From positions 3,454,542 through 3,486,541 of the forward strand of contig NZ_CP036280.1 of assembly GCF_007748075.1 (NCBI RefSeq): DNA of 32,000 bases. The letters run 5' to 3'. Below are positions 1-32,000 of the stretch, piece after piece. This DNA comes from Mucisphaera calidilacus. GTDB taxonomy: Bacteria; Planctomycetota; Phycisphaerae; Phycisphaerales; Phycisphaeraceae. A program made the translations under genes and the position numbers. The notes below the pieces were generated by a model. It worked only from the letters and a program-made list of their open reading frames with translations. It was not told the DNA's origin and made no database searches. The first letter of the stretch is position 1; each line of letters opens with the position of its first letter.

Positions 1-438
1 GACCAGAATTCTGACGTTCTGGAGATCGCTTAGGTGTTGTTCGATGAGCGGTCGCACGTCGGCCCAATCGAGTTTGCCGTTGCCACTGCCAAGCGGTGGG
101 ATACCAATGGATTTGATGTTCAGGTCGAGGATGACTTGGCGCAGGTCGGCAAGCCCCTGATCAATCCATTCGATTTTTGAGGGTGGACGCCAGTGTTTCT
201 TAGTCGGGAAGTGAATCACCCACTTTGGGTTGTGTAGTTGTCCGGTTTGCGTGACGAACATCTTGCCCGTTAGAACCTCGTTGCGGTCGCAGGCCGTCTT
301 GTAGGCGTTGAAGATGTCGGGGAATCTGTCCTTAAACATCAGGGCGATGCCCTTGCCCATGACGCCGACGGTGTTGACGGTGTTGACAAGTGCCTCGGTG
401 TCGGCTTCCAGCAGATTGCCTGAGGTGTAGTGAATCAT
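1..438 (-). CDS. darG: DarG antitoxin, N-terminal macrodomain (partial; 3' end runs off the left window edge)
   Basis: Own translation of the minus strand from ATG (438..436): [136 protein letters not shown]... I checked codon by codon that the frame stays open to nt 1, which is why it is absent from the ORF track. Macrodomain hallmarks are present (NxVNxxGVMGKG, IPPLGxGxG). It starts 1 nt after the darT stop. Confidence 0.85.
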
Positions 439-439
439 G

Positions 440-1108
440 TCAGAAGTACCATGATGGCAATGTTTTAACGGCTAGATTCAAGCTGGCGTTTGCGGTGTCG
501 TTTGCAATCTGTTCGGTGGTTGACTCATTGTAGCACGCAATACCGAGTAGGGCATCGATGGGTACGTGGCGGTATGCGAGCGCTTCGGCCTGATAGCGGT
601 TGAATTTCTCAGGGCGTTCTGGGTCTCGTCTGAAGTCTTTTGCCTGAAGCAGTGGCCAATCGATCTTGTCGAGATCATCGACAGAGTTGTAGCAGGTGCT
701 TTCCTGCATGTATGCGTGGCCGTCGTAGAAGACGAAGGGGATTTTGAGCTCGGCTAATCGGTGCACGGAAGAGGTGAGGATCACGATCTCGTGATTCGGA
801 CGCTGGATTACGCCATGGTATCCGGTTTTGATGTTGTACATCATGACTGAGTAAGGCGTGAAATAGAACGGTATGTAGTCTGCGAGCGTCCCCCTCGGTT
901 CGGCTTCTACCGTGTGGCTTGACCGTTTGAGGATTAACTCCTGACTGCCGATGGGCACGAAGTTCAAATCTTGCTTTGGGCTATTCATGCAGTGCAGACC
1001 GTTATCCAGAAGCCATGGCACGTTATTGACGTGCGTAATGCGAAATATTCTCCCATCTTTTGCGTTCAGGCCTGCCATTTCAGTTCGGCACCATCTCGCT
1101 TCCAGCAT
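440..1108 (-). CDS. darT: DarT ssDNA ADP-ribosyltransferase toxin (DUF4433 family)
   Basis: ORF-track protein ...[18 protein letters not shown]...[18 protein letters not shown]...[12 protein letters not shown]...[14 protein letters not shown]...SWYF. It is collinear with characterised DarT (IYHITHxxNL start, YVPFYF, catalytic-Glu context KQAEFLV, C-terminal WYY). An alternative start is the ATG at 1078 (MAGLNAK...). It sits immediately upstream of darG. Confidence 0.85.
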
Positions 1109-1310
1109 GTGGTTGTCCCCGGCGGTAAGGGTGTTTTGTAGCGGTCTGTGGCAGATACCGCAATGGAGCTTTGCGGGAAGGAGCTCTCGGCTGATGTCTG
1201 TGTGAAGTGTGCTGTGATCGGATGCGGTAGTCCTTCGACTCGGCTCAGGATCTTGCCCCTTCGGCCTTGCTCAGGATCAGGCTTGTCGCGAGGAGGCGGG
1301 CGGTGGTGTG

Positions 1311-1808
1311 TCAGTTGTTGGCGGGGGGGTCGAGTTCGGAGGTGATTCGGTTGGCGTAGATGCCGGGTGAGGAGCCGGGGATTTCGGTGGCGTTGCAGGC
1401 GCGTGCGTAGAAGTCGGCGGGTCCGACGCCTCCGATGATGCCGTAGGCGTAGCCTTCGTGCCAGAGTGCCCAGAGTGCGGCGAGGAGGAGGGCTTTGCCG
1501 ACGCCTTTGCCGCGGGCGGTGTCGGCGACGCCTGTGGGCCCGAAGTAGCCTTTGCGGGTGACGTCGTAGCAGGCGAAGCCGATGATCTGTTCGTTTTCGA
1601 CGGCGATGAAGCAGCTGACGGGTGTGTTGGAGAAGGCGGCGTTGCACTCGTCGGCCCAGGCGGGCTGGAACTCGTCGTTGGCGAATCGGAGGAGGTGTCG
1701 TCGTTCGTGGGCGCTGATGCGTCGGATGACGATGCCCTGGTCTGCGAGGTTGCGGATCAGCTCGCGGTGATCGGGCAGTTCGTAGAGTTTGACGAGCATG
1801 TCGGGCAT
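1311..1808 (-). CDS. GNAT family N-acetyltransferase
   Basis: C-terminal 165 aa of ORF 1311..2510, starting at ATG 1808 (MPDMLVKLYEL...). It carries an acetyl-CoA-binding motif (ARGKGVGKALLLAAL). The upstream part of the long ORF is R/P/H-rich read-through and is not coding. Confidence 0.8.
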   Translation of the reverse strand: MPDMLVKLYELPDHRELIRNLADQGIVIRRISAHERRHLLRFANDEFQPAWADECNAAFSNTPVSCFIAVENEQIIGFACYDVTRKGYFGPTGVADTARGKGVGKALLLAALWALWHEGYAYGIIGGVGPADFYARACNATEIPGSSPGIYANRITSELDPPANN

Positions 1809-1870: not shown

Positions 1871-3430
1871 TTATTGGGGGAGTTCGAGGATGACCTTGTC
1901 GCTGGCGATGCCGAGTTCGTCGACGACGAAGGTGACGACGGCCTCGACGCCGAGGTTGGGGATGTCGGTCATGTCCTTGTCGGTGGCGGGCATGTTGGCG
2001 AGGCCCATGCGTGAGATGGCGGGGAGGATGGTGTTTTCCCAGTTGCCGTCGCGTTTGACCTGGATGACCCACCAGCGAGCGTTTTCGAGGGATCGGTGTC
2101 CTGCGACGACGCGGATGCCGTCGTCGGCGATGATGTTGACGGTGGCGGTAGGAGCCTGGGGTTGTGTGCCGTCGGAGAGCCACGGGCTGGCGGGGACGAG
2201 TGCGGGTTTGGCGTAGACGGTGTTGGCGAGGTTTTCGCGGAGTTCGGGGTTTTTGGTGACGGACTTGGCGGAGAAGTGGACGTGTCCGTCGGCGCCCTCG
2301 ATGTGCCGGATCCACTGGATCTGGTAGTTGATTTCGTTCTCGTCGAACTGGTTGCCGGTGCGGTAGGTTCCGAGTCCGGGCCAGAGGTTTCGTCCGGTGG
2401 GGTTCTGCTCGGACCACCAGTTCAGGAGTGCGACGAAGCTCTGCTGGGGTTTGGCGATTTCCCAGTAGAGTTGGGGCGTGTAGTAGTCGACCCAGCCTTC
2501 GACGAGCCACTTGCGTGCGTCGGCGTAGAGTCCTTCGTACTGGTTGAAGCCCTGGATCTGTTCGGGATGACCGGGTTTCCAGATGCCGAAGGGGCTGATG
2601 CCGAAGCGGACCTTGGGGGATTGCTCTTTGAGTTGTGTGTAGAAGCGTTGGATGAAGTCGTCGACGGCGGCGCGTCGGAAGTCGCTGATGCCGAGGGTTC
2701 CGCCTGCGTCGGTGTAGGCCTTGTAGGTTTGGGCGTCGGGGAAGTCGACGATCTGGCCGTCGTCGCCTCGGACCTGGTAGGGGTAGAAGTAGTCGTCGAT
2801 GTGGATGCCATCGACGTCGTAGCGTTTGGCGACGTCGAGGAAGACGTCGAGCGAGCGTTGTTTAACTTTTTCTTCGGCGGGGTTCATCCAGCGGTAGACG
2901 CCATACTGCGGGACGATGTCGGGGTCGGTGACGGCGATGTGGTCGTCGGTGAGGGGTGATTTCTGGTTGGGGTGGAGGGCTCGGTAGGGGTTGAACCATG
3001 CGTGGAGTTCGAGTCCGCGTTTGTGGGCTTCGGCGCAGGCGAACTTGAGGGGGTCGTAGTAGGGTTCGGGTGCTTTGCCCTGTTCGCCTGTGAGGTAGTG
3101 CGACCAGGGTTCGAGGGGTGAGTCGTAGAGCGCGTCGGCGTGGGGTCGCACCTGGAAGACGACGGCGTTCATGTTGAGTGCGGCGAATTCGTCGAGGTAT
3201 TCGATGAGTTCGGCTTTTTGTTGTTCGACGGGGAGGCCGGGTTTTGAGGGCCAGTCGATGTTGGCGACGGTGGCGATCCAGGCGGCGCGGAATTCGCGGG
3301 GCACTTCGGGGACGCCGAGTTCTTTGAGCGCGGCGTCGTGGGTGCTGAGTTCGTCGGTCGGCGCGGTGGAGCAGCCGAGCGGGAGTGCGGCGATGAGGGT
3401 GAGGGCGAGGAGGGTGGCGAGGTGTCGCAT
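1871..3430 (-). CDS. Glycoside-hydrolase-like GHL10 (former DUF187, YngK-like) lipoprotein
   Basis: Start chosen at ATG 3430 (MRHLATLLALTLIAALPLGCS: signal peptide plus lipobox LPLGC). REFRAAWIATVANIDWPS, NAVVFQVRP and HAWFNP are typical of GHL10 TIM-barrel proteins. A GAGG-like RBS lies upstream. Confidence 0.8.
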   Translation of the reverse strand: MRHLATLLALTLIAALPLGCSTAPTDELSTHDAALKELGVPEVPREFRAAWIATVANIDWPSKPGLPVEQQKAELIEYLDEFAALNMNAVVFQVRPHADALYDSPLEPWSHYLTGEQGKAPEPYYDPLKFACAEAHKRGLELHAWFNPYRALHPNQKSPLTDDHIAVTDPDIVPQYGVYRWMNPAEEKVKQRSLDVFLDVAKRYDVDGIHIDDYFYPYQVRGDDGQIVDFPDAQTYKAYTDAGGTLGISDFRRAAVDDFIQRFYTQLKEQSPKVRFGISPFGIWKPGHPEQIQGFNQYEGLYADARKWLVEGWVDYYTPQLYWEIAKPQQSFVALLNWWSEQNPTGRNLWPGLGTYRTGNQFDENEINYQIQWIRHIEGADGHVHFSAKSVTKNPELRENLANTVYAKPALVPASPWLSDGTQPQAPTATVNIIADDGIRVVAGHRSLENARWWVIQVKRDGNWENTILPAISRMGLANMPATDKDMTDIPNLGVEAVVTFVVDELGIASDKVILELPQ

Positions 3431-3555
3431 GGAGAGTTCCTCTGATTGTTTCAGAACCGATAGAAGAACCATAAGAATACCAGAGAGGCCGTCGGGTGTG
3501 TCGGCGTGTGGTTCGACAAGGGGGGTTGGGGTGTCCATGATGGCGGCTGGAGTTT

Positions 3556-4929
3556 GTGATGCTGGAATACATCGCGGGTTTTCGGCCATCGGCTCAGCCG
3601 CTGATGACGCGGCCGACGTACGAGCGTGAGTTGTGGACGGCGATGGCGATGCCGATCGCGGTGTCGATGGTCGAGGGCGGCGTGGTGGGGATTCTGGCGA
3701 AGAAGGCTTTTGATGTTTCGCCGATCGTTTTCGCGGCGATCCAGGCGGCGCCGATGTTCGCGAACGTGACGAGTCTGGGTTGGGCGATGCTGGCGCGGGG
3801 CAGGCCGAAGGTGCCGTTCATCACGGGGATGATGGTGGTGGTGCTGTTGTGCGTGGCGGGGATCGCGTTGTTGCCGACGGGTGGCGTGTTGGGTTCGTGG
3901 TTGCTGGCGTTGCTGGTGATCGCGTCTCGGTGTCTGCTGGCGGGTGTGGTGACGCTCCGGAGCGTGGTGTGGCGGAACAATTATCCGCGTCACGTTCGGG
4001 CGCAGATCACGGGTCGTTTGTCGCTGGTGGTGAGTCTGGTGGTGGCGGTGGCGCCGGTGGTGGGGTACGGCTTTCTGGATCGCGGGCCGGAGAACTTCCG
4101 GATTCTGTATCCGGTGGCGGCGTTGCTGGCGGTGGTGGGTGTGGTGTCGTTTTCGCGGGTGCGTTTGCGTCAGGAGGCGAGTCTGCTGGCGTACGAGAAT
4201 CGGTCTGATGTGGAGCCGGTGCCGAAGGGTGAGACGGGCGCGGTGTATGAGTATGAGGCGTTGCCACGGGACACGTTCTGGTCGGTGTTGCGGAAGGACG
4301 GTGCGTTTCGGACGTACATGTTCTGGCAGTTCATCGCGGGGATGTCGATGATGTCGGGCGAGACGGTGGTGGTGTACGTGATTGCGGAGCAGACGGCGGG
4401 CTGGTCGTATGAGTATCTGCTGTCGGTGTTGTTGTCGACGTCGGTGCCGATGCTGGTGGCGGTGGCGTTGATGCCGACGTGGGCGCGTTATCTGGATCGG
4501 GTGCACATCGCGAAGTTCCGGACGCGTCAGGGCTGGTTCTGGGCGTTGGCTCAGGGATTGAATCTGATGGGCGCGTTGCTGGGTTCGTTGTCGCTGATCG
4601 GTTTGGCGCGTGCGGTGATCGGGATGGTTCGTGCGGGTGGGATGCTGGCGTGGAACCTGGGTCACAATGATTTTGCGGACCGTCGGCTGGTGTCGATTTA
4701 CATGGGGATCCACGTGACGCTGACGGGTGTGCGTGGCGCGATTGCGCCGTTCCTGGGGATTCTGCTTTATGCGGGGTGGTCGGAGCGTGATTTGGGGGGT
4801 GGCGTGGTGCTGCCGGGGTTCGAGGGATTGGGGAGTTGGTTTTTTGCGGTGTCGTTGGGATTGGCGGTGCTGGCGTGGGCGGGTTTTGCCCGGATGGCGC
4901 GGGAGGCTGAGTCGGTGGCGGGGTCATGA
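3556..4929 (+). CDS. Polytopic membrane transporter, MFS-like
   Basis: 457-aa ORF with about 12 hydrophobic segments in two halves split by a charged central loop (RLRQEASLLAYENRSDVEPVPKGE). G/T-ending codons match the other + strand genes. The start is uncertain (GTG 3556 or ATG 3559). The family call is inferred from topology only. Confidence 0.55.
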   Translation: MMLEYIAGFRPSAQPLMTRPTYERELWTAMAMPIAVSMVEGGVVGILAKKAFDVSPIVFAAIQAAPMFANVTSLGWAMLARGRPKVPFITGMMVVVLLCVAGIALLPTGGVLGSWLLALLVIASRCLLAGVVTLRSVVWRNNYPRHVRAQITGRLSLVVSLVVAVAPVVGYGFLDRGPENFRILYPVAALLAVVGVVSFSRVRLRQEASLLAYENRSDVEPVPKGETGAVYEYEALPRDTFWSVLRKDGAFRTYMFWQFIAGMSMMSGETVVVYVIAEQTAGWSYEYLLSVLLSTSVPMLVAVALMPTWARYLDRVHIAKFRTRQGWFWALAQGLNLMGALLGSLSLIGLARAVIGMVRAGGMLAWNLGHNDFADRRLVSIYMGIHVTLTGVRGAIAPFLGILLYAGWSERDLGGGVVLPGFEGLGSWFFAVSLGLAVLAWAGFARMAREAESVAGS

Positions 4930-8131: not shown

Positions 8132-9352
8132 TCAGTGAGCGCCCCACTGGACGGTGGCGAGGTCGATGCCTTCTTTGACCATGTCGTAGAGGGGGCTCAT
8201 GGCGAGCAGGTGGTTGACGGACTTGACGACCTGCTGGACGGTGTAATCGACTTCTTCCTCGGTGTTGAATCGTCCGAGTCCGAAGCGGATGGAGCTGTGC
8301 GCGATCTCGTCGCCTGCGCCGAGTGCCTTGAGGACGTAGCTGGGCTCGAGTGACGCGGAGGTGCATGCGGAGCCGGAGGAGACGGCGATTTCCTTCATGG
8401 CCATCATGAGGGACTCGCCCTCGACGTAGGGGAAGGAGATGTTGGCGGTGTGGGGGAGTCGTCGGGTCTTGTGGCCGTTGAGGACGGCGGTTTCGATCTG
8501 TCCGGTGATGCCGTCGACGAGTCGGTCGCGGAGTGCGGTGAGTCGTTCGGCCTCGGATTGCATTTCGTTGGCGCAGATCTCGCAGGCGGCGCCGAGACCG
8601 ACGATGCCGGTGACGTTGAGGGTTCCGGAGCGCATGCCGCGTTCGTGGCCGCCGCCCTCGATGATGGGAGCGAGCCGGACGCGTGGCTTGCGTCGTCGGA
8701 CGTAGAGGAATCCGGCGCCCTTGGGTCCGTACATTTTATGTGCGGTGGCGGAGAGGAGGTCGATGCCGGCGGCTTCGACGTCGGTGGGCATTTTGCCGAC
8801 CCACTGCGTGGCGTCGGTGTGGAAGAGGACGCCTTTGTCCTTGCAGATCGCGCCGATCTCGGGGATTTCGTTGGCGGTGCCGACCTCGTTGTTGGCCCAC
8901 ATGACGGAGACGAGGATGGTGTCGTCGCGGATTGCCTCTCGGACCTGTTCGGCGTAGATGACGCCATCCTGTCCGGGTTCGAGGAAGGTGACGTCGTAGC
9001 CCTCGCGTTGGAGTCGTTTGCAGGGGTCGAGGACGGCCTTGTGTTCGTGGACGGCGGAGATGATGTGTTTGCCCTGTTTGGCGTACATGTCCGCGGCGCC
9101 CTTGATGGCGATGTTGTTGGACTCGGTGGCGCCGGAGGTCCAGATGATCTCCTTGGGGGAGGCGTTGATGAGGGAGGCGACCTGCTGTCGTGCCTTGTCG
9201 ACGGCGTCCTCGGCGGCCCAGCCGAAGCTGTGGTTGCGGCTGGAGGCGTTGCCGAAGTGCTCGGTGAAGTAGGGGAGCATGGCGTCGAGCACCCTGGGGT
9301 CCATGGGTGTGGTCGCGTTGTGGTCCATGTAGATGGGGAGCTTGAGGGTCAT
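8132..9352 (-). CDS. iscS: Cysteine desulfurase IscS (PLP-dependent)
   Basis: 406 aa. [30 protein letters not shown] (PLP lysine) and [17 protein letters not shown] (catalytic Cys loop). Confidence 0.95.
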
Positions 9353-14918: not shown

Positions 14919-14944
14919 CGGGTTGATTCTGGGCGGGAGAGGAT

Positions 14945-14972
14945 TTGACTTGGTTTACGGGTTCGCTAGTAT
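14945..14972 (+). promoter_or_regulatory. Sigma70-like promoter for arsR-arsM (TTGACT-16-TAGTAT)
   Basis: TTGACT 14945-14950, 16-nt spacer, TAGTAT 14967-14972. The arsR ATG (14979) lies 6 nt after the -10 box with no SD, which suggests a leaderless transcript. Confidence 0.4.
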
Positions 14973-14978
14973 GCTTGC

Positions 14979-17035: not shown

Positions 17036-17057
17036 CGGGGGCGGTGTATCGGCTGTG

Positions 17058-20384: not shown

Positions 20385-21089
20385 TCAGGGGTTTTTGCGT
20401 TGTTGCCAGAGGCTGACGGCCTCGGGCTGCCGCCCGTAGGTGGGCGTGAGGGCCGACGGGTCACTGTAATCGCCAGCGTGTGCGGCTGCGCGCCCGAGCT
20501 GGTAGACGACGGCGGCGGAGCAGGTGGCGTGCTGATCGAGGAGGAGGTTGATGCCGAGGTCCCGGGCGTTTCGGGTGATGGTTTCGGGGAGGGTCTGGGC
20601 GATGAGGCAGTCGGGTTGCGGGTTGGCGAGGAGTTCGGCCAGGAGTCCGGCGTGGGGCTGGCGCGTGGGGGTGAGGGTGTGGCCGGTGCGTTGGTAGGCG
20701 GCGATCCAGGCGTTGTCGGCCTTGGTGTTGAGTGCGACGGCGATGTGCCGGGCGTCGGGCGGGGCGTTGTGGGCGAGGGTGTGCGTGGTGGGTATGGCGA
20801 CGACGCGTGCGGGCGTGGTGAGGGTGAGGGTTTGGGTGACGGCGAAGCCGACGCGCAGGCCGGTGAAGGATCCGGGGCCGGTGGAGAGGGCGATGGTGTT
20901 GAGTTGGCCGGGGTTGAGGCTGAGTTCGTGGAAGGCGTCGGCGAGTTGGGGGACGAGTCCGACGGAGTGTCTTCGTGCGGGTTCGAAGCTGCGGACGAGC
21001 AGGGGCTGTTCGTCGGTTCCGATGGCGATGGAGGCGGTTCGGCCGCTGGTTTCGATCGCGAGGAGGAGTCCGGGGTCGTCGGCGTTCAT
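20385..21089 (-). CDS. tsaB: tRNA t6A37 biosynthesis protein TsaB (YeaZ)
   Basis: Start at ATG 21089 (MNADDPGLLLAIETSGRTASIAIG...). TGPGSFTGLRVG motif. I counted 234 aa. The start overlaps the trpD stop (ATGA). Confidence 0.85.
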   Translation of the reverse strand: MNADDPGLLLAIETSGRTASIAIGTDEQPLLVRSFEPARRHSVGLVPQLADAFHELSLNPGQLNTIALSTGPGSFTGLRVGFAVTQTLTLTTPARVVAIPTTHTLAHNAPPDARHIAVALNTKADNAWIAAYQRTGHTLTPTRQPHAGLLAELLANPQPDCLIAQTLPETITRNARDLGINLLLDQHATCSAAVVYQLGRAAAHAGDYSDPSALTPTYGRQPEAVSLWQQRKNP

Positions 21090-23054: not shown

Positions 23055-23339
23055 ATGTCGGTTTCAGAAGCATTGAGTGAGCGGTTGATGGAAGCGGTGC
23101 CGTGGTCGGGTGGGTGCTGGTATGCGTCGTCGTCGGGTTGCCCGCGTTTCGTGGACGCGAAGGATGACGACGCGTTCGAGGATGATGACGACGACGTCTT
23201 TGATGACGACGACGAGGATGATGACGATTTTGAGGATGATGAGGACGACTTCTTCGACGACGAGGAGGACGACGACCTGTTCGACGACGAGGAAGATGAC
23301 GATCTGGATGGGGATGATCTTCTCGACGACGACGAGTGA
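23055..23339 (+). CDS. Extremely acidic small protein (hypothetical)
   Basis: ATG 23055 is preceded by GGAGG at 5-nt spacing. The N-terminal 33 aa (MSVSEALSERLMEAVPWSGGCWYASSSGCPRFV) show the G/T-ending codon periodicity of + strand genes. About 46 of the last 61 residues are Asp/Glu (hand count). Confidence 0.6.
   Translation: MSVSEALSERLMEAVPWSGGCWYASSSGCPRFVDAKDDDAFEDDDDDVFDDDDEDDDDFEDDEDDFFDDEEDDDLFDDEEDDDLDGDDLLDDDE
23154..23336 (+). repeat. Low-complexity (GAY/GAR)n tract encoding the D/E-rich tail
   Basis: Directly visible gat/gac/gag runs punctuated by ttc/ttt/ctg codons. This tract is what produces the poly-Ser and poly-Val antisense ORFs in the track. Confidence 0.9.
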
Positions 23340-23389
23340 TCCTTCTCTGGATTGCGGGTGAGCTCGTCGTCCTGACGGGTGCACCAACG

Positions 23390-23779
23390 ATGAGTGAGCG
23401 TGGACAATCGTCTCGGGGTGAGCACAAGGAACGGGGTCCGGACCGGCGCAAGTCGGTGGTGGATCAGCGGATGCCCGGCACGGGCCTGGAGCGTCGTCGC
23501 GGCCCGGGTCGTCGTCTGAGTGATTTTGCTCGGGCGGCGGAGGAGGGCGAGCTGAGCTCGGAGCAGTTTGCTTTCGTGAAGGCGATTGACGCGTACAAGC
23601 GTTCGAACGACCGTCCTTATCCGAACTGGACGGAGGTTCTTGAGGTGATCCGGAAGCTGGGTTACCGCAAGACGGCGTCGTCGGAGCTGAATCTGGCGGC
23701 GTTCGAGGACTGGACGGAGCCGGCGGATGCGCCGGCGTTTCCGGACACGTCGGACGTTTGGGAGGGCGAGGCGGCCTGA
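23390..23779 (+). CDS. Hypothetical protein with an Arg/Lys-rich N-terminus and a small helical C-terminal domain
   Basis: MSERGQSSRGEHKERGPDRRKSVVDQRMPGTGLERRRGPGRR... then FAFVKAIDAYKRSNDRPYPNWTEVLEVIRKLGYRK. Coding periodicity is good. An alternative start at GTG 23336 overlaps the acidic gene's stop (GTGA) and would add a hydrophobic 18-aa N-terminus. Confidence 0.6.
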   Translation: MSERGQSSRGEHKERGPDRRKSVVDQRMPGTGLERRRGPGRRLSDFARAAEEGELSSEQFAFVKAIDAYKRSNDRPYPNWTEVLEVIRKLGYRKTASSELNLAAFEDWTEPADAPAFPDTSDVWEGEAA

Positions 23780-23841
23780 GGGGAGTCTGAACGGGGGTTG
23801 GCCGGATCGGCTAAGGTCTTCGCTCTTCGGAGACCCGACTG

Positions 23842-24372
23842 ATGGCCGAGACGCCTTATCGCATCGCGACGCTTTGTTACCTGTTTGATGATCGGGGGCG
23901 GTTGCTGCTGATTCACCGGCGCAAGCACCCGAACCGGGATTTGTATTCACCGATTGGTGGCAAGTTGGACACGGTTTCGGGTGAGAGTCCGCAGCAGTGC
24001 GCACTCCGTGAGATACGGGAAGAAACCGGGTTAGTATTGAGCGAAGGCGATTTACACCTGGTGGGTCTGGTTTCGGAGACGGCGTATCAGAACGAAACAC
24101 ACTGGCTGATGTTTCTTTATGAAGTAACAACGTTACACAGCCTGGCGGAGCGTGATATCAACGAGGGCAGGCTAGCGTGGGTGACGCGTGAGGAGTTAGT
24201 GGAATTGCCCATGCCGGAGACGGATCGCGAGGTGATCTGGCCGCTTTTCTGGGCTCATCGCGGCGGGTTTTTCGCGGCGCACATTGATTGTCGCGGGGGT
24301 GCGATGCGTTGGACGCTGGACCGCAGTTTGCGGGCTGAGGGGGGCGTGGGGGCGGATTCTTGCGATTGTTAG
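23842..24372 (+). CDS. NUDIX hydrolase
   Basis: Nudix box GGKLDTVSGESPQQCALREIREETGL (GX5EX7REUXEEXGU). Confidence 0.85.
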   Translation: MAETPYRIATLCYLFDDRGRLLLIHRRKHPNRDLYSPIGGKLDTVSGESPQQCALREIREETGLVLSEGDLHLVGLVSETAYQNETHWLMFLYEVTTLHSLAERDINEGRLAWVTREELVELPMPETDREVIWPLFWAHRGGFFAAHIDCRGGAMRWTLDRSLRAEGGVGADSCDC

Positions 24373-24476
24373 CAAACCGGTTGTGCAGCCGGGCATTTTT
24401 CCGCTATATTTTGCTTTCCGGGTTTTTGTACCCAGGGGGATGGCGGGTCACAGTTGATGATTGAAGAGATTGTCGT

Positions 24477-25613
24477 GTGGCCACAAGCCCGGTGAATCTA
24501 TCTACCTTTACACGATTGGACAGTACCTTGAGCAAGTCACGCGTGATGACCCCGGACACCGCATCCTTTGCGCCGTGGGATCATGGATCGGAGCACCTGT
24601 TTCGCCTGTTGAAGGGCGTTGTGAAGATCAACGGTTTTTCGCTGGCGATTCTGGACCCGTCGCGTCCGCGTGAGGACGGCTTCTTGGCCGGTGCGGGGAT
24701 CAGCAAGGACGAGGTGGATCGCTGGTGCGGGAGCGGTTATGCGAACGACCCGCTTTATCAGGAGGCGTTGCGTAAGGGGATTGCGAGTGGTCGCGGGCTG
24801 AAGACCAAGCCGTCGCCGCCCGCGCCGGGCAAGCAGATCGTGATCGCGACGGAGCCGGTGGGTCCTGAGAGCAAGGCTGTGTGGGTTCTGATTGGTGGCC
24901 GTGACAGCGCGTTGTCGGAGGATGAGCTGGCTGCGTGGCCGCTGCTGCTCAAGAGCATCCGCACGTCGTTTGATTACATGCCGGAGCCGGGTATGTCGCG
25001 TGTGGTTCTGGGCAGTGACGACCGCGTGATCCATGCGGACCCGGTGCTGCGCAGCCGTGCGATCAGTCAGCCGGAGGTTCTGAGTGATCTGTCGGCGAAC
25101 CTTCGTCCGATCATCGAGCAGCGTTGGCCGGAGACGGAGTATTTCGAGCGTCACGACCTGTCGATCGAGGTGAACGGCGAGCCGACGTGGGTTCGGTTCC
25201 ATTTCGGGCATGCCCCGGGCGAGTCGGAGGGCGAGCACCTGTATGTGGAGCTACGTCCGTTGTCGGAGGATGACGTTCCGCCGAGCGGCCTGGTACCGGA
25301 CGACCGTATTGCGCAGGCGGCTGGTTACATCAGCGACAATTTCGCGTCGTCGCCGAACCTGACGGAGATCTCGGCGTCGGTGGAGACGAGCCCGTTCCAC
25401 TTCCACCGCCTGTTCTCGAAGCAGATGAACATCAGTCCGAAGCATTATCTGCTTCGTCTTCAGATGCAGATCGCCAAGTGGATGCTTCGTGCGAGCCGCA
25501 AGCCGATCGGCACGATCGCGATGGACACGGGTTTTTCGAGCCACGGTCACTTCACGGCGACGTTCCACCGGATTGTGGGAATGAGCCCGACGCAGTACCG
25601 CGAGAGCAACTGA
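24477..25613 (+). CDS. AraC/XylS-family transcriptional regulator with an uncharacterised ~270-aa N-terminal domain
   Basis: C-terminal double HTH: IAQAAGYISDNFASSPNLTEISASVETSPFHFHRLFSKQMNISPKHYLLRLQMQIAKWML...GFSSHGHFTATFHRIVGMSPTQYR. Start uncertain (GTG 24477 or ATG 24546). Confidence 0.8.
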   Translation: MATSPVNLSTFTRLDSTLSKSRVMTPDTASFAPWDHGSEHLFRLLKGVVKINGFSLAILDPSRPREDGFLAGAGISKDEVDRWCGSGYANDPLYQEALRKGIASGRGLKTKPSPPAPGKQIVIATEPVGPESKAVWVLIGGRDSALSEDELAAWPLLLKSIRTSFDYMPEPGMSRVVLGSDDRVIHADPVLRSRAISQPEVLSDLSANLRPIIEQRWPETEYFERHDLSIEVNGEPTWVRFHFGHAPGESEGEHLYVELRPLSEDDVPPSGLVPDDRIAQAAGYISDNFASSPNLTEISASVETSPFHFHRLFSKQMNISPKHYLLRLQMQIAKWMLRASRKPIGTIAMDTGFSSHGHFTATFHRIVGMSPTQYRESN

Positions 25614-25793
25614 GTCGTGCCTGTGCGGGCGTTGTGAGGCGTGGGTCCGGTATTCCGGTGCGGCCGGAACGGATGGATCTGCGTCCGGATGTCCGATGGT
25701 AGAGTGGTGTGGGACCGGGCCGGGTTTGGCCGCGGTCGTCTGGCCGTCTATCTTGTAGGCGGCAGGAGATCACCCGGAAAGGACCTTCGCTTT

Positions 25794-26402
25794 ATGGCAC
25801 GGATCGACACCTGGCTGAGCCGCCCGATGCTCGCAGTTCTGACGCTGGCTGTGGCCCTGCTGCCTTTGGGCTGCACGGCGAACCGTTACACCTTCGAGAG
25901 TTCGGCGTTCAGCCCGAAGACGGTGGAGGTGGTGGATCAGCTGGCGATGGAGACGGTTTGGGCGATGGACGTCCCGGTGGGTCAGAAGTTGATTCTGGAC
26001 TTCAACAGCAAGCATGAGGGGGGGGTGTTCACGCACGACCCGACCCCGCCGACGTCGATGACGTGGGAGCTTCAGCGAGCGTCGCGGCACACGCTCTTTG
26101 CCCAGCACTACATCGGTGGTGCGAACGACAAGGGCGAGGTGGTGTTGAACGGCAACCCGGTGATCACGCGTGTGACGGTTCGCGAGGTGAATCGTGAGCT
26201 GGAGGAGCCGATGCCCGAGTTGTTCGTGGCCCCGACGGAGCCGGCTTCGTTCTCGGAGCCTGAGTCGGACGCGGGCGTCTCGGACGTTCCGGCGGAGGAG
26301 CCTGCTGAGGACGTGATGGACGAGGCGCCGTCCGAGGACGCGGCGGAAGATGCCGAGTCGGCCGAGGACGAGGTCCCGTTGCTGGAGGGTGCCCCGGACT
26401 GA
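25794..26402 (+). CDS. Lipoprotein, hypothetical, with an acidic disordered C-terminus
   Basis: Start at ATG 25794 (MARIDTWLSRPMLAVLTLAVALLPLGCT, signal peptide plus lipobox). The C-terminal ~60 aa are E/D/A/P-rich. Confidence 0.65.
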   Translation: MARIDTWLSRPMLAVLTLAVALLPLGCTANRYTFESSAFSPKTVEVVDQLAMETVWAMDVPVGQKLILDFNSKHEGGVFTHDPTPPTSMTWELQRASRHTLFAQHYIGGANDKGEVVLNGNPVITRVTVREVNRELEEPMPELFVAPTEPASFSEPESDAGVSDVPAEEPAEDVMDEAPSEDAAEDAESAEDEVPLLEGAPD

Positions 26403-27038: not shown

Positions 27039-27042
27039 ATGA

Positions 27043-29018: not shown

Positions 29019-29909
29019 ATGCCTGAGACGCCTTCTGAAACCTGGACAACCCGCAAGCTGTTGACGTGGACGACGGGTCACCTGGAGCGTCACGGCGTGG
29101 ATCATGCTCGTCTGGCGGCGGAGATGCTGCTGGGGCACGTGCTGGGTGTGGAGCGGCTTCGGCTGTATCTGGACCCGGACCGGCCGGCGTCGTCGGCGGA
29201 GCGGGATCGGTTTCGGGCGTTGATCGAGCGTGCGACCGGCCACGAGCCGGTGGACTACCTGGTGGGTCGGGCTCCGTTTTACGGGCTGGAGTTGGCGGTG
29301 GATCGTCGCGTGTTGATCCCGCGTCCGAGCACGGAGGCGCTGGTGGACGCGGTGATCGAGCATGCGCGTTCGCAGGGGCGGCCGGTGTCGGTGCTGGACG
29401 TGGGTACGGGCAGCGGGGCGGTGGCGCTGGCGTTGGCGAAGTCGCTGGCGGATGCGTCGGTGACGGCGACGGACGTGGAGGCGGAGGCGTTGGCGGTGGC
29501 TCGGGGGAACGCGGAGCGCTTGGGTTTAGCGGATCGTGTGCGTTTTGTGCGTGGTGATCTGCTGGGTGCGGTGGCGGGGGAGCGTTTTGACGTGATCGCG
29601 TCGAACCCGCCTTACATCCCCACGGGCGATCTTGCGGGTCTGGATGCGAACGTGCGTGATCACGAGCCGCACGGTGCTCTGGATGGTGGTGTGGATGGGC
29701 TGGCCTGCGTGAACGCGTTGATCGACGGGGCGGCGGATCATCTGCTGCCCGGGGGTTTGCTGGCGTTGGAGTACAACGGCGGGGCTCAGACGTCGGCGGT
29801 GACGGAGCGTCTGGGGCGCGTTTCGGGTTGGGGTGAGTCCCGGGTGCTTCGTGACCACGAGGGTCTGGAGCGTGTGGTGTGCTGTGTGCGTGAGGCGCAG
29901 GGGGCTTAG
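29019..29909 (+). CDS. prmC: Peptide chain release factor N5-glutamine methyltransferase
   Basis: HEPVDYLVGRAPFYGLEL, LIPRP(S)TE, SAM motif VLDVGTGSGAVALALA, catalytic IASNPPYIP. Confidence 0.9.
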   Translation: MPETPSETWTTRKLLTWTTGHLERHGVDHARLAAEMLLGHVLGVERLRLYLDPDRPASSAERDRFRALIERATGHEPVDYLVGRAPFYGLELAVDRRVLIPRPSTEALVDAVIEHARSQGRPVSVLDVGTGSGAVALALAKSLADASVTATDVEAEALAVARGNAERLGLADRVRFVRGDLLGAVAGERFDVIASNPPYIPTGDLAGLDANVRDHEPHGALDGGVDGLACVNALIDGAADHLLPGGLLALEYNGGAQTSAVTERLGRVSGWGESRVLRDHEGLERVVCCVREAQGA

Positions 29910-30538
29910 CGCATCACGTCGCGTTCTTCGACGAGTTCGATGGGCTGGAACTGGGGGTTGTCGTAGAAGCCGGGCGCTGAGAAGCGGAGCATGCGTGTAC
30001 GTCGGAGTTGGATGGTTTCGCCTTCGCGATCGGGGTCGGGGTGTGCGATGGTGGCGGTTTCGCCGCTGAGTCCGCCGATGAAGACGGTCATCTCGTCGAT
30101 GTCTTCGTAGGGTGCGCGCCAGATGGCGACGCTGTCGCGTGCGTGGTCTTTGCCCTGGAGGAGTCGTCCGACGGCCTCGGTGGGGCTCTGGAGGAGCGGG
30201 TTGGCGATGACGCGTTCGATCTCGTTGTAGACGGTGGGCGCGATGCCCTGGTTGGCGGCGATGATGCGTCCGGTGTCGTCGGCGATGTCGAATTCGGGAA
30301 CGAGGAGTCGTTCGTCGCCTGTGTTGTTGGTGACGCTGTAGGTCATGAACCAGTACCAGCGGACGGTGCCGGAGGGTTCTTTGACGGCGATGGTTCGGGG
30401 GATGTCCCACTGGAGGTCGAGGACCCACGAGGGGCTGATGATGCCGGGTTCGGGGTGGCCGGTGTCGGGCTCATCCTGGGCGAGTGCGGGGGTTACGGCG
30501 ATCAGGAGGGTGATCAGGACGACACGAAACGATGTCAT
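29906..30538 (-). CDS. Secreted hypothetical protein
   Basis: Signal peptide MTSFRVVLITLLIAVTPALAQ. 210 aa with C/A-ending codon periodicity. The stop overlaps the convergent prmC stop (cTTAGc). Confidence 0.6.
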   Translation of the reverse strand: MTSFRVVLITLLIAVTPALAQDEPDTGHPEPGIISPSWVLDLQWDIPRTIAVKEPSGTVRWYWFMTYSVTNNTGDERLLVPEFDIADDTGRIIAANQGIAPTVYNEIERVIANPLLQSPTEAVGRLLQGKDHARDSVAIWRAPYEDIDEMTVFIGGLSGETATIAHPDPDREGETIQLRRTRMLRFSAPGFYDNPQFQPIELVEERDVMR

Positions 30539-30649
30539 GGCTCAATCCTCGTAGGCTTGGGAGACTTCATAGGGTACCGGTTCCTGCGGCTCGCGTGAAG
30601 GAGCGGTGTTCGCGGAGCGGCTAGACTGCCTGCTTGCTGGGAGCGATGC

Positions 30650-31585
30650 ATGGCCGGATCGTCATCTCAAGGTGTCGGGTTGTCGATGGAGCGTGTCTCG
30701 GGCGGGCGTTGCCCGGAGGCGTTGGCGTTGTTGCTGACGGGTCGTTGGGGGGATCCGGGGAGGATGGTGGAGGGATTTCGGGCGTACATCCTGCAGCAGG
30801 GGTTGTCGCTGGACCTGCTGTGGGTGGCGCGGATGGACGGTGAGCCGACGGCGGCGGTTTTGCTGCTGCCGAACGTGGGTCGTTCGGCGATGGTGTTCGT
30901 GTCGCCTTGCCGTTCTCAGGAGCAGGCGGGGGTTCTGACGGCGGTGTTGAGTCACGCAGCGGAGTCGTCGGAGGGATTGGCGGGGTATCTGACGCAGGTT
31001 CTGCTGGAGCCGAGTCAGCGTCTGGAGAAGTCGGCGGTGCTGCTGGGGGGTTACGAGCATCTGGCGGACCTGGGTTACCTGCAGCGGACGCTGCGTGAGG
31101 GTGACGGGAGCGACGCGATGCCGGGGGGCTACCGGGTGGAAACGGCGGACGTTGCTCCGTCGGGTTGGTTGGAGCGTGTGATCCTGTCGAGTTACGAGCG
31201 GACGCTGGACTGTCCGTCGCTGGTGGGTCGTCGCGCGATCGAGGACATCGTGGCGGGTCACAAGGCGACGGGTGTGTTCGATCCGACGCTCTGGTTCATT
31301 CTGGTGGAGGAGGCGTCGGAGGAGCCGGTGGGTGTGACGCTGATCAATCCGCTGGTTCAGCCGGGTGGTTACGAGCTGGTTTATCTGGGTGTGGGCGTGT
31401 CGCACCGGGGTCGGGGTCTTGCGGGTTGGATGATGCGTTACGCGATGGGCGCGTTGTGTGGTCGATCGTCGTCGGGGACGCTGTATCTGGCGGTGGATCA
31501 GCGGAACGTACCGGCTTTAAAGCTCTACGCGGGGCTGGGTTTCAGGCAGACGGCGGAGCGCGCGGCGTACCTGCGGATGCTGTGA
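30650..31585 (+). CDS. GNAT-family N-acetyltransferase (two-lobed; C-terminal acetyl-CoA motif)
   Basis: The C-terminal ELVYLGVGVSHRGRGLAGWMMRYAM ... ALKLYAGLGFRQ is a GNAT motif A/B. The N-terminal ~150 aa look like a degenerate second GNAT-like lobe. Start uncertain (ATG 30650, or the M of MERVSGG about 30686). Confidence 0.7.
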   Translation: MAGSSSQGVGLSMERVSGGRCPEALALLLTGRWGDPGRMVEGFRAYILQQGLSLDLLWVARMDGEPTAAVLLLPNVGRSAMVFVSPCRSQEQAGVLTAVLSHAAESSEGLAGYLTQVLLEPSQRLEKSAVLLGGYEHLADLGYLQRTLREGDGSDAMPGGYRVETADVAPSGWLERVILSSYERTLDCPSLVGRRAIEDIVAGHKATGVFDPTLWFILVEEASEEPVGVTLINPLVQPGGYELVYLGVGVSHRGRGLAGWMMRYAMGALCGRSSSGTLYLAVDQRNVPALKLYAGLGFRQTAERAAYLRML

Positions 31586-32000
31586 AACCCTGTGAATCGC
31601 GGGGTTTTCCACGGGTTATGCGTGAGGGTTCGGCGTGGCGTGGAAAAAAAGAAATCAAGTCAATAACTGCATGATTCACAATGGGCTGGAATGGGTATGC
31701 GGGTTGCGGAGGCTGTTCCCCCGGTTGAAGCGGAGGGCGTGTGTCTCTAAGTTTGGGCTTGCGTCGCTGGATGGACGCACGTGAACTTGTTGAAGGACAC
31801 ATCTCATGGTCGAGCACGGCTTGAAGTCTCAGAGAATTGGCCTGTTGTCACAGGCCGTGCCCGGCACGCCGGACGGACCCGGTTTTCAGGGGCAATCCTG
31901 CCTGAGAGGGCGGGTGAGCCAGCACACGGCACAGCGCCACACCTGATGTTCGCGGGGGGCGTCGTGTGAGCCCCACGCCTAACCAATAAGGGTCCATGCC

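What the first reader, a model, noticed from the sequence alone, without database searches (positions are those of the whole stretch)
1..32000. Extreme replication-strand-like asymmetry: the + strand is G>>C and T>A in genes of both orientations, giving mirrored codon usage
I hand-counted seven arbitrarily chosen 60-nt lines, starting at 2401, 8401, 19021 and 21301 (inside minus-strand genes) and at 4501, 12421 and 29401 (inside plus-strand genes). Together they give G 185 : C 86 and T 94 : A 55 on the + strand. That is a GC skew of about +0.37 and a TA skew of about +0.26, and every line shows G>C. The effect is visible codon by codon. Plus-strand genes (prmC, M16, MFS) use GCG/CCG/ACG/TCG/CTG/GTG/CGG-CGT. 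Minus-strand genes (iscS, der, the 79-aa TM protein) use GCC/CCC/ACC/TCC/CTC/GTC/CGC-CGA. Typical bacterial GC skews are a few percent. Strand-dictated codon usage is known from low-GC spirochaetes such as Borrelia, but a high-GC genome with skew this large would be unusual. It implies strong strand-specific mutation pressure and a decoding apparatus that copes with two codon dialects. It also explains why the six-frame track is full of 200-900-aa ORFs: stops need A on the + strand and T on the - strand, and both are depleted.
Basis: seen in the sequence. Interest (0 to 1): 0.7.

Follow-up and report, generated by a model that had tools for sequence, protein, structure and literature searches.

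The report
Extreme strand-mirrored base composition, Mucisphaera chromosome
This 32-kb piece of the free-living, high-GC marine planctomycete Mucisphaera calidilacus has one DNA strand so enriched in G and T that genes on opposite strands use mirror-image codons and differ in amino-acid content, an asymmetry about twice that of Borrelia, the classic extreme case.

Summary
The + strand has G 13234, C 6980, T 7211 and A 4575. That gives a GC skew of +0.31 and a TA skew of +0.22, positive in every 1-kb bin. At four-fold degenerate sites the + strand GC skew is +0.73 in + genes and +0.84 in − genes, so it follows the physical strand and not gene orientation. All 32 genes scored, including Pfam-verified genes on both strands, show this.

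The window is Mucisphaera calidilacus Pan265 (Phycisphaerae). It ends about 0.4 kb upstream of where collinear relatives carry dnaA.

Relatives in Phycisphaeraceae show the same amplitude. One collinear relative carries the opposite polarity on the same genes. Der has conserved four-fold codons that are 68% C in the window and G in that relative, and amino-acid replacements follow the strand. This indicates a strand-linked mutation pressure, most likely replicative.

Two points are new. G exceeds 50% at four-fold sites, so deamination transitions alone cannot explain it and asymmetric transversions are required. The polarity relative to dnaA also differs among collinear relatives and is unexplained.

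The genome-wide pattern and fork direction could not be tested.

The parts
1..32000 (+). G- and T-rich strand over the whole window, with no sign switch
   Evidence: GC skew +0.309 and TA skew +0.224, and all 32 one-kb bins are positive.
18949..20364 (-). der (GTPase Der), an example of a C/A-dialect gene
   Evidence: Pfam match. Four-fold sites on the coding strand are C .82 and G .05. It is 100% identical to M. calidilacus Der. The ortholog in relative B has G where the window has C at 68% of conserved four-fold codons.
8132..9352 (-). iscS, in the Rrf2-IscS-IscU-IscA cluster (7219-9900); C/A dialect
   Evidence: Pfam and tblastn. GC4 on the + strand is +0.90.
1871..3589 (-). GHL10 glycosyl hydrolase-like gene, C/A dialect
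   Evidence: Pfam. GC4 on the + strand is +0.86.
21086..22132 (-). trpD, C/A dialect
   Evidence: Pfam. GC4 on the + strand is +0.87.
3556..4929 (+). MFS transporter, G/T dialect
   Evidence: Pfam. Four-fold sites are G .79, T .14, C .06, A .02.
12150..13397 (+). M16 peptidase, G/T dialect
   Evidence: Pfam. GC4 is +0.79 and TA4 is +0.90.
29019..29909 (+). prmC, G/T dialect
   Evidence: Pfam. GC4 is +0.79 and TA4 is +0.96.
13404..14057 (+). DFP-domain gene (CoaBC-type), G/T dialect
   Evidence: Pfam. GC4 is +0.92.
23336..26402 (+). Stretch with the weakest skew among the native genes (orf147, NUDIX, AraC, orf253)
   Evidence: GC4 is +0.40 to +0.57. The 1-kb GC skew falls to +0.13 and the TA skew to +0.07. 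In relative A the skew crosses zero at the same genes.
1..1108 (-). darT-darG toxin-antitoxin island, low GC and only half the skew; probably a recent acquisition that has not equilibrated
   Evidence: DarT Pfam match. A macrodomain-like reading frame lies at 1-441. GC is 0.51-0.54, GC skew +0.13 to +0.16 and GC4 +0.23.
14919..18908 (.). Window-specific insertion (methyltransferase, small ORF plus PIN-domain gene, heparinase II/III-like gene) that carries the full skew
   Evidence: Relatives A and B lack it between orf238 and der. GC4 is +0.62 to +0.87.
31586..32000 (+). Intergenic region upstream of dnaA (dnaA itself lies beyond the window end). It holds a convergent pair of DnaA-box-like sites at 31605 and 31639 and a conserved A/T-rich 22-mer. 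It has the lowest skew of any unassigned segment.
   Evidence: Synteny GNAT-IGR-dnaA is seen in five relatives. The boxes were found and the alignment is A1. GC skew is +0.16 and TA skew +0.01.

Best explanation
The window is part of the chromosome of Mucisphaera calidilacus Pan265. It sits in a long stretch that has been under a very strong, strand-specific mutation pressure for a long time. The most likely source is the asymmetry between leading- and lagging-strand replication. One physical strand accumulates G and T and its complement accumulates C and A. Because the pressure acts on the DNA strand and not on the gene, genes on the + strand end their codons in G/T and genes on the - strand end theirs in C/A. 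The pressure is strong enough to reach first and second codon positions and to shift amino-acid composition. Plus-strand genes are richer in Gly, Val, Arg, Glu and Ser. Minus-strand genes are richer in Ile, Asn, Thr, Gln, His and Pro. What is shown: the dependence on the physical strand, the amplitude, the effect on proteins, the same trait in related genera, and the opposite polarity on the same collinear genes in one relative. What is inferred: that replication direction is the cause, that the G/T-rich strand is the leading strand, and that the pattern covers the whole chromosome. The base-level spectrum must include more than the classical deamination of single-stranded DNA. On the G-rich strand, two-fold sites sit at about G:A 95:5 and C:T 45:55, which is roughly a 20-fold asymmetry in transitions. 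Four-fold sites are 70-80% purine with G above 50%. Transitions cannot produce that, so pyrimidine-to-purine transversions must exceed the reverse by about 2.3- to 4-fold on that strand.
For: The skew follows the physical strand in all 32 genes scored, including Pfam-verified genes on both strands. There is no gene-strand bias, with 18 genes on each strand. The strand component is about 0.6 at codon position 3 (0.73-0.84 at four-fold sites) and about 0.1 at positions 1 and 2. Unassigned DNA is skewed in the same direction in every segment. A probable recent acquisition (darTG, GC 0.53) has only about a quarter of the four-fold skew, as expected for a pressure that acts over time. Organism: Der, orf210 and IscU are each 100% identical to M. 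calidilacus proteins on a 3,486,541-bp contig. Relatives: the Mucisphaera sp. MAG reaches plateaus of +0.7 and -0.75 to -1.0 on either side of a sign switch. A Phycisphaeraceae MAG has +0.63 to +0.91 over about 12 kb in genes of both orientations. Poriferisphaera sp. WC338 has -0.5 to -0.88 at two loci that have opposite polarity in genome coordinates, so the sign does switch along a chromosome. Strain AB-hyl4 has +0.6 to +0.8. Planctomycetia loci show none. Natural experiment: the window and relative B are collinear but oppositely skewed. For Der, only 10% of conserved four-fold codons share the third base and 68% are C in the window and G in B. At replaced residues the copy coded on the G/T-rich strand has Gly 68:13 and Val 95:36, and the other copy has Pro 38:8 and Ile 53:18. 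This excludes gene-specific selection.
Against: No sign switch lies in the window, and the rest of the chromosome could not be retrieved, so the ori/ter pattern that defines replicative skew is untested for this genome. In collinear relatives the region next to dnaA behaves inconsistently. The window and contig C show one polarity throughout. Relative A shows a gradual G-to-C switch over about 25 kb. Relative B shows a sharp C-to-G switch about 3 kb from the dnaA upstream region and then a decline 17 kb further on. A fixed origin with one fixed polarity does not explain all of this. In Poriferisphaera the G-rich arc that contains dnaA is at most about 0.52 Mb of 4.24 Mb unless there are more than two switches. 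If oriC lies beside dnaA as is usual, the leading strand in the window would be the C/A-rich one, contrary to the bacterial rule. Unassigned DNA has a GC skew of only 0.32 against 0.73-0.84 at four-fold sites, so four-fold sites are not a pure neutral read-out, or the short intergenic regions are constrained.
Confidence: 0.75

Rival explanations
1. The asymmetry is a physical-strand mutation bias, but its relation to replication is not the classical one. Either the leading strand is the C/A-rich one in Mucisphaera (inverted polarity with oriC at dnaA), or the origin and terminus sit in unusual and evolutionarily mobile positions, for example dnaA in a fork-convergence zone, strongly unequal replichores or more than one origin.
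For: dnaA lies just beyond the window's right end, and the G-rich strand runs 5' to 3' towards it. A conserved DnaA-box pair plus an A/T-rich element sits in that intergenic region in six genomes. In relative A the genes left of dnaA point away from it and are coded on the C-rich strand, and the sign switch beside dnaA is of the G-to-C type. Collinear relatives differ in polarity at this locus. Poriferisphaera shows at least one switch within 0.52 Mb of dnaA and none at dnaA itself.
Against: G>C together with T>A on one strand is the universal signature of the leading strand in bacteria (established knowledge; PMC5291525). In Poriferisphaera and in contig L022 the skew does not switch at dnaA, so the DnaA boxes may only regulate dnaA. 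In the window (inferred from the adjacent GNAT gene), in B and in Poriferisphaera, dnaA lies on the G-rich strand, which is an ordinary arrangement if the origin lies further upstream. In AB-hyl4 the tuf-secE-nusG cluster is on the strand that is G-rich in the adjoining 10 kb.
Confidence: 0.17
2. The skew comes from gene orientation, that is from transcription-coupled mutation or translational selection combined with an uneven distribution of genes between strands, as in Firmicutes.
For: There is a small coding-strand preference for C. Genes coded on the G-rich strand show somewhat weaker skew (0.73) than those coded on the C-rich strand (0.84). Highly expressed genes in a relative resist the skew (EF-Tu cluster).
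Against: Genes are split 18 to 18 between the strands. The coding-strand skew changes sign with orientation in every gene. Unassigned DNA shows the same polarity. GC and TA skews are concordant, unlike in Firmicutes.
Confidence: 0.02
3. The skew is an artefact: strand-specific sequencing or assembly damage (for example C-to-T conversion), or a local oddity of this 32-kb block such as a recently inverted or foreign segment, rather than a property of the genome.
For: Only one window of the genome was seen. Local blocks of reversed skew do exist in a relative.
Against: The reading frames are intact and have strong Pfam matches. The effect is concentrated at synonymous sites, which damage would not respect. 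Independent assemblies of related organisms from other samples show the same amplitude. The one clearly foreign piece (darTG) has less skew, not more.
Confidence: 0.04

Closest known systems
Strand-separated codon usage in Borrelia burgdorferi and nine other bacteria (Treponema pallidum, Chlamydia trachomatis and C. muridarum, Buchnera, Blochmannia, Bartonella henselae and B. quintana, Tropheryma whipplei, Lawsonia intracellularis); list in PMC2671203
   Same: One strand favours G/T-ending codons and the other C/A-ending codons. The effect follows the DNA strand. Amino-acid composition shifts with strand. GC and TA skews are concordant.
   Different: The amplitude is about twice as large. The window has GC skew 0.308 and TA skew 0.226 per 1-kb bin, against 0.179 and 0.091 in B. 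burgdorferi. Third-position GC skew in Lawsonia is about +0.32 / -0.13, against a strand component of about 0.6 here. All ten listed species are host-associated, and those whose composition I know are of low or middling GC (my knowledge). M. calidilacus is a free-living aerobic marine heterotroph with 3.49 Mb and 63.9% GC. In B. burgdorferi most genes are on the leading strand, whereas in the window they are split 18 to 18.
Heavy/light-strand asymmetry of vertebrate mitochondrial DNA (review PMC3269012, seen; details from my own knowledge)
   Same: The four-fold-site skews are of comparable size. G and T accumulate together on one strand. The usual explanation is deamination of C and A on the strand that stays single-stranded longer.
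   Different: Deamination causes transitions only, so purines stay near 50% of each strand. Here the G-rich strand is 70-80% purine at four-fold sites and G alone exceeds 50%, so transversions must also be asymmetric. This is also a 3.5-Mb bacterial chromosome with a bacterial replisome.
Ordinary bacterial replicative GC skew (Lobry-type; typical size about 2.5%, SkewDB, PMC8941118)
   Same: It is a physical-strand effect, with concordant G>C and T>A, and it changes sign along the chromosome (seen in relatives).
   Different: It is about ten times larger than typical. In a survey of 7738 genomes, skews shrank with rising GC and high-GC genomes clustered near zero.
Firmicutes-type asymmetry, with strong gene-strand bias and discordant TA skew (SkewDB, PMC8941118; the link to PolC is my own knowledge)
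   Same: The overall GC skew is large.
   Different: In Firmicutes much of the skew comes from genes crowding on the leading strand, and the TA skew is discordant with the GC skew. Here the genes are evenly split and T>A accompanies G>C.

Membership tests
Replication-associated strand compositional asymmetry (GC/TA skew) | The skew follows the physical DNA strand whatever the gene orientation | tested here: met
   All 32 genes scored are G-rich on the + strand at four-fold sites. The pooled value is +0.73 for + genes and +0.84 for - genes.
Replication-associated strand compositional asymmetry (GC/TA skew) | It is present in non-coding DNA and strongest at the least constrained sites | tested here: met
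   Unassigned DNA has +0.32 GC and +0.24 TA skew, positive in every segment. The strand component is about 0.6 at codon position 3 and about 0.1 at positions 1 and 2. Caveat: the unassigned DNA is less skewed than the four-fold sites.
Replication-associated strand compositional asymmetry (GC/TA skew) | The sign switches at the origin and terminus, with two switches roughly opposite each other on a circular chromosome | tested here: inconclusive
   There is no switch in the window and the source genome was not retrievable. Relatives do show sign switches, but their positions differ among collinear genomes, and the two Poriferisphaera loci do not fit two equal arms.
Replication-associated strand compositional asymmetry (GC/TA skew) | The leading strand is the G-rich one | not testable with these tools
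   Fork direction is unknown. dnaA lies just past the right end, with the G-rich strand pointing towards it, so the polarity is ambiguous. No dif-like site was found.
Genomes with strand-separated codon usage (Borrelia type) | Genes on the two strands use distinct synonymous codons, G/T-ending against C/A-ending | tested here: met
   One search gives, for example, Ala GCG .83 vs GCC .75, Thr ACG .88 vs ACC .78, Val GTG .76 vs GTC .95, and Glu GAG .95 vs GAA .69.
Genomes with strand-separated codon usage (Borrelia type) | Amino-acid composition differs by strand in the direction of the base bias | tested here: met
   Plus genes have more Gly (+2.9 percentage points), Val (+2.5) and Arg (+2.3). 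Minus genes have more Ile (+2.3), Asn (+2.1) and Thr (+2.1). Replacements between orthologs follow the strand context.
Genomes with strand-separated codon usage (Borrelia type) | The strand is the primary axis of codon-usage variation across the whole genome | not testable with these tools
   Only 32 kb of the genome was available. Within it the strand explains nearly all the variation.
Genomes with strand-separated codon usage (Borrelia type) | Host-associated, reduced genome of low or middling GC (a shared character of the known members, not a definition) | tested here: not met
   The organism is a free-living aerobic heterotroph with 3,486,541 bp, 63.9% GC and 50 tRNAs (PMC8882080).
Deamination-only (mitochondrion-like) strand asymmetry | The asymmetry can be produced by C-to-T and A-to-G transitions alone, so purine content stays near 50% on each strand | tested here: not met
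   Four-fold sites on the G-rich strand have G .67-.77 and purines .70-.80. Transitions cannot move sites between purine and pyrimidine.
Firmicutes-type skew driven by gene-strand bias | Most genes lie on one strand and the skew is largely explained by that; the TA skew is discordant | tested here: not met
   There are 18 genes on each strand. The TA skew is concordant with the GC skew.

The most novel reading that the evidence does not exclude
Phycisphaeraceae replicate or repair their chromosome in a way that is not the textbook one. One possibility is that the leading strand is the C/A-rich one, that is, inverted polarity with oriC beside dnaA. Another is that origin and terminus positions move between closely related collinear genomes. 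A third is that a so far undescribed strand-asymmetric transversion process drives G above 50% at silent sites of one strand; strand-biased incorporation or repair of oxidised guanine nucleotides is one candidate I considered but did not test. The evidence does not exclude any of these. The same collinear genes next to dnaA carry full-amplitude skew of opposite sign in different genera, and deamination alone cannot give the observed purine excess.
Probability: 0.2. Interest if true: 0.85.

Novelty: new variant of a known kind. Interest (0 to 1): 0.68.

Why it matters
Strand-specific mutation bias strong enough to split a genome into two codon dialects has been treated as a feature of small, host-bound genomes of low or middling GC. 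Here it appears at about twice the Borrelia amplitude in a free-living, high-GC bacterium with a 3.5-Mb genome, and in several related genera. That removes the usual explanations of relaxed selection and repair-gene loss in reduced genomes.

It also offers a clean natural experiment. The same genes have been driven to opposite synonymous and amino-acid compositions in sister lineages, which allows measurement of how far mutation pressure can reshape proteins.

The purine excess shows that the standard deamination model is insufficient. It points to an unidentified strand-asymmetric transversion process.

There are practical consequences too. Gene finders, codon-adaptation indices, binning by composition and phylogenies built from these proteins will all be biased by strand. 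If fork direction turns out not to match the classical polarity, that would touch an unstudied question, namely how planctomycetes replicate their chromosome.

Tried and rejected
1. Loss of a uracil-DNA glycosylase as the cause. Relatives A and B carry a PF03167 UDG gene plus a BaxI gene between M16/Hpt and ADK. The window has no homolog. However, A and B are skewed as strongly as the window, so I rejected this as the explanation. Whether another UDG exists elsewhere in the genome could not be checked.

2. My first impression that the extreme skew is specific to M. calidilacus. The nearest genome gave only 0.088 over 21 kb. This was wrong, because that locus straddles a sign switch and its plateaus are as extreme as the window.

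3. Import of relative B's reversed block by recombination. Protein identities of B to the window are no lower inside the block than in the flanks, relative to A, so there is no support.

4. Search for a dif site near the switches, using a consensus recalled from memory. It found nothing, which is only weakly informative.

5. Search for a DnaA-box cluster at the apparent switch in Poriferisphaera. None was found. Boxes occur only in the dnaA upstream region.

6. tRNA genes and Rfam families in the window. None were found.

7. Retrieval of the source chromosome. It is not on record. The metagenome scan returned only short or distant contigs.

8. Literature. The species description does not mention skew. 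A search for 'GC skew' with 'Phycisphaerae' returned seven papers, none of whose titles or abstracts concern this. The structure tools were not relevant.

Full report
**The observation.** A full count of the window gives G 13234, C 6980, T 7211 and A 4575. That is 63.2% GC, a GC skew of +0.309 and a TA skew of +0.224. Every 1-kb bin is positive for both skews. Across bins the GC skew is 0.308 +/- 0.069 and the TA skew is 0.226 +/- 0.081.

**The genes are real and lie on both strands.** Pfam confirms these on the - strand: GHL10, FtsJ, NifU/IscU, IscS, a heparinase-like protein, Der, TrpD, DUF6677, PanC, a GT1 glycosyltransferase and DarT. It confirms these on the + strand: MFS, adenylate kinase, Hpt, a response-regulator GGDEF protein, M16 peptidase, a DFP-domain protein, a methyltransferase, PIN, NUDIX, AraC, PrmC and GNAT. 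tblastn adds Rrf2, IscA, TsaD, a second GNAT and a small ORF on the - strand. The split is 18 genes on each strand, 13.4 kb on + and 15.1 kb on -. Gene crowding on one strand therefore cannot cause the skew.

**The skew follows the physical strand.**
- At four-fold degenerate sites, + genes are A .03 C .10 G .67 T .20.
- Minus genes on their own coding strand are A .13 C .77 G .07 T .03.
- On the + strand this gives a GC skew of +0.73 and +0.84, and a TA skew of +0.75 and +0.66.
- All 32 genes scored have the same sign.
- The strand component is about 0.6 at codon position 3 and about 0.1 at positions 1 and 2.
- Unassigned DNA has +0.32 GC and +0.24 TA skew, positive in every segment of 100 bp or more.

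| Amino acid | + genes | - genes |
|---|---|---|
| Ala | GCG .83 | GCC .75 |
| Pro | CCG .73 | CCC .80 |
| Thr | ACG .88 | ACC .78 |
| Val | GTG .76 | GTC .95 |
| Leu | CTG+TTG .87 | CTC .89 |
| Lys | AAG .99 | AAA .59 |
| Glu | GAG .95 | GAA .69 |

Proteins differ too. Plus genes have more Gly, Val, Arg, Glu and Ser. Minus genes have more Ile, Asn, Thr, Gln, His and Pro.

**Where the window comes from.** Der, the 210-aa hypothetical protein and IscU are each 100% identical to Mucisphaera calidilacus proteins from a 3,486,541-bp contig. M. calidilacus Pan265 belongs to Phycisphaerae, Planctomycetota. It is a free-living aerobic mesophile (optimum 30-33 C) isolated from a biofilm at a shallow hydrothermal site. 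Its genome has 63.9% GC, 50 tRNAs and no plasmid. Its description does not mention skew (PMC8882080). The chromosome itself could not be fetched.

**Relatives.** In what follows, A is a Mucisphaera sp. MAG on a 3.25-Mb contig. B is a Phycisphaeraceae MAG (JAVKDK01). C is a 10.8-kb assembly contig. All three are collinear with the window. In all three, and in two more distant Phycisphaeraceae, the order GT1-PrmC-orf210-GNAT is followed by an intergenic region of about 440 bp and then dnaA. The window therefore ends inside the dnaA upstream region.

- **Relative A.** My first impression was that the nearest genome is only weakly skewed, at 0.088 over 21 kb. That was wrong, because the locus straddles a sign switch. 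A has four-fold skew of +0.65 to +0.73 on one side of dnaA. It then declines gradually over about 25 kb to a plateau of -0.75 to -1.0, which is the window's amplitude.
- **Contig C.** It has the window's polarity throughout.
- **Relative B.** It carries +0.63 to +0.91 over about 12 kb in genes of both orientations, but with the opposite polarity relative to the genes.
- **Poriferisphaera sp. WC338.** This is a complete 4.24-Mb genome with about 51% GC at the two sampled loci. It shows -0.5 to -0.88 at two loci, with all-site skew up to 0.49. In genome coordinates these two loci have opposite sign, so the polarity does change along a chromosome.
- **Strain AB-hyl4.** It shows +0.6 to +0.8.
- **Weak or absent skew.** One Phycisphaeraceae contig (L022) shows only about +0.1 to +0.2. 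Another (L008) and two Planctomycetia loci show no strand component.

The trait is thus widespread but not universal in the family.

**A natural experiment.** The window and B are collinear but oppositely skewed, so orthologs can be compared codon by codon.
- In Der (77% amino-acid identity), only 10% of conserved four-fold codons share the third base.
- 68% of those codons have C in the window and G in B.
- M16, the DFP-domain gene, AraC, ADK and PanC behave the same way, with the sign set by their strand.
- At replaced residues, the copy coded on the G/T-rich strand has Gly 68:13, Val 95:36, Glu 74:32 and Met 32:11.
- The copy coded on the C/A-rich strand has Pro 38:8, Ile 53:18, Gln 44:17 and His 29:10.

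Gene-specific selection cannot do this. A pressure acting on the DNA strand can.

**What the numbers say about the spectrum.** On the G-rich strand, two-fold sites give about G:A 95:5 and C:T roughly 45:55 (derived). That is about a 20-fold asymmetry between complementary transitions. This is the direction expected from deamination of C and A on the strand that is more often single-stranded. But four-fold sites on that strand are 70-80% purine, with G alone at .67-.77. Transitions cannot change the purine share of a strand. So pyrimidine-to-purine transversions must outnumber the reverse by about 2.3- to 4-fold. The classical deamination model, which fits mitochondrial DNA, is therefore not sufficient here. 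This step is an inference from equilibrium composition, not a measured spectrum.

**Comparison with what is known.** Typical bacterial skew is about 2.5% (SkewDB). B. burgdorferi, the classic extreme, has GC skew 0.179 and TA skew 0.091 per 1-kb bin, summing to 0.270. In a survey of 7738 genomes, skews fell with rising GC and high-GC genomes clustered near zero (bioRxiv 10.1101/176370). The window has 0.308 and 0.226, summing to 0.533. The ten bacteria listed as having strand-separated codon usage are all host-associated (PMC2671203). I found no paper that reports this for Phycisphaerae. The kind of phenomenon is known. Three things appear to be new:
- the amplitude;
- the setting, a free-living, high-GC organism with a 3.5-Mb genome;
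- the need for asymmetric transversions.

**What remains unexplained.**
- **Replication link.** It is inferred only.
- **Polarity at dnaA.** The G-rich strand of the window runs towards dnaA. A convergent pair of DnaA-box-like sites (TTATCCAC, about 25 nt, GTGGATAA) followed by AAAAAGAAATCAAGTCAATAAC is conserved in that intergenic region across six genomes. It could be part of oriC or just dnaA autoregulation. If oriC is there, the leading strand in the window is the C/A-rich one, against the bacterial rule. If the polarity is conventional, forks run through the window towards dnaA.
- **Disagreement among collinear relatives at this locus.** The window and C show no switch. A shows a gradual G-to-C switch. 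B shows a sharp C-to-G switch about 3 kb from the dnaA upstream region and a decline 17 kb further on. Part of that decline may be selection for C-ending codons in the Isc genes, as seen for the EF-Tu cluster in AB-hyl4.
- **Poriferisphaera.** The skew does not switch at dnaA. The arc of one polarity around dnaA is at most about 0.52 Mb unless there are extra switches.
- **Terminus.** No dif-like site was found.
- **Unassigned DNA versus silent sites.** Unassigned DNA is less skewed (0.32) than four-fold sites (0.73-0.84), so silent sites are not a pure neutral read-out.

Composition alone predicts stop-codon frequencies of 3.1% on the + strand and 2.1% on the - strand, against 2.8% without skew. 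In random sequence the skew lowers long open frames on the + strand (8 vs 13) and raises them on the - strand (27 vs 13). The observed 39 and 65 owe more to high GC and codon structure. So the ORF explanation is only partly right. The decoding claim could not be tested, because the window has no tRNA genes.

**Verdict.** The finding is real and striking. It is best explained as an extreme, clade-wide, strand-linked and probably replicative mutation pressure (confidence 0.75). There is an open and testable question about fork direction and the transversion process. A whole-chromosome skew plot and a read-depth profile would settle most of it.

Noticed in passing
window 1-1108 (- strand): A darT-darG toxin-antitoxin pair. 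DarT lies at 440-1108 and a macrodomain-like frame at 1-441 is cut by the window edge. GC is 0.51-0.54 and the four-fold skew is only +0.23, against about +0.8 next door. It looks like a recent acquisition that has not yet taken on the host's asymmetry.
   Followed up: partly
window 31586-32000; L017 8461-8899; L018 8473-8937; L019 1-240; L022 8850-8900; L023 8760-8810: dnaA begins just beyond the window's right end. Its upstream region holds a convergent pair of DnaA-box-like sites (window 31605 TTTTCCACG and 31639 CGTGGAAAA; TTATCCAC and GTGGATAA in relatives). These are followed by a nearly invariant A/T-rich 22-mer, AAAAAGAAATCAAGTCAATAAC. The element is conserved across six Phycisphaeraceae genomes although silent sites are saturated. 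It could be part of oriC or a dnaA autoregulation site.
   Followed up: partly
window 10651-10835 versus L006 16586-18190 and L020 4548-7292: Relatives A and B carry a PF03167 uracil-DNA glycosylase gene and a BaxI-family gene (A also a GerE regulator) between M16/Hpt and ADK. The window has only 185 bp there and no homolog anywhere in its 32 kb. This is not the cause of the skew, because A and B are equally skewed.
   Followed up: yes
window 14919-18908: A roughly 4-kb insertion that is absent from relatives A and B. It holds a SAM-dependent methyltransferase, a small ORF plus a PIN-domain gene (a VapBC-like pair) and a heparinase II/III-like gene. It carries the full skew, so it is not recent.
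   Followed up: partly
L006 1200-19000 and L018 (relative B): A block of about 17 kb has full-amplitude skew of the opposite sign to the window, flanked on both sides by weaker skew of the window's sign. There is no rearrangement relative to the window. The left boundary is sharp (within about 2.5 kb, inside PrmC/GT1) and the right one is gradual.
   Followed up: partly
L017 + L001 + L020 (relative A, contig positions 1,415,446-1,456,113): The skew falls gradually from +0.7 to -0.85 over about 25 kb starting at dnaA, rather than switching abruptly. This resembles a broad fork-convergence zone or a switch point that has recently moved.
   Followed up: partly
L021 17660-20557 (strain AB-hyl4): The tuf-rpmG-secE-nusG cluster has four-fold GC skew near -0.1 to -0.26 while the preceding 10 kb is at +0.6 to +0.8. 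Selection for C-ending codons in highly expressed genes can apparently cancel the strand pressure.
   Followed up: no
window, + strand: Canonical G-quadruplex motifs are scarce despite 41% G. There are 7 on the + strand, against 32 +/- 5 in base-shuffled sequence, and none on the - strand. The spacing of G at third codon positions may explain this. Selection against quadruplexes is an alternative.
   Followed up: no
window 6103-7218: This 1.1 kb has no convincing gene. The 501-aa ORF at 6072-7577 (-) has no Pfam match and an atypical codon-position GC pattern. Relative A has a 154-aa gene at the corresponding place, but no homolog was detected here.
   Followed up: no
window 27043-28101 and 27891-28976: The longest ORFs for panC and the GT1 gene overlap by 211 bp. 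The Pfam match to PanC starts at residue 76, so the true panC start is probably about 27876 and the overlap is an artefact of scarce stop codons on the - strand.
   Followed up: no
L022 (ENA contig, GC 53%) and L008: Some Phycisphaeraceae with the same dnaA-GNAT-orf210 synteny (L022), or with 65% Der identity (L008), have little or no strand component. The amplitude therefore varies widely within the family, which gives natural contrasts for finding the responsible gene.
   Followed up: no
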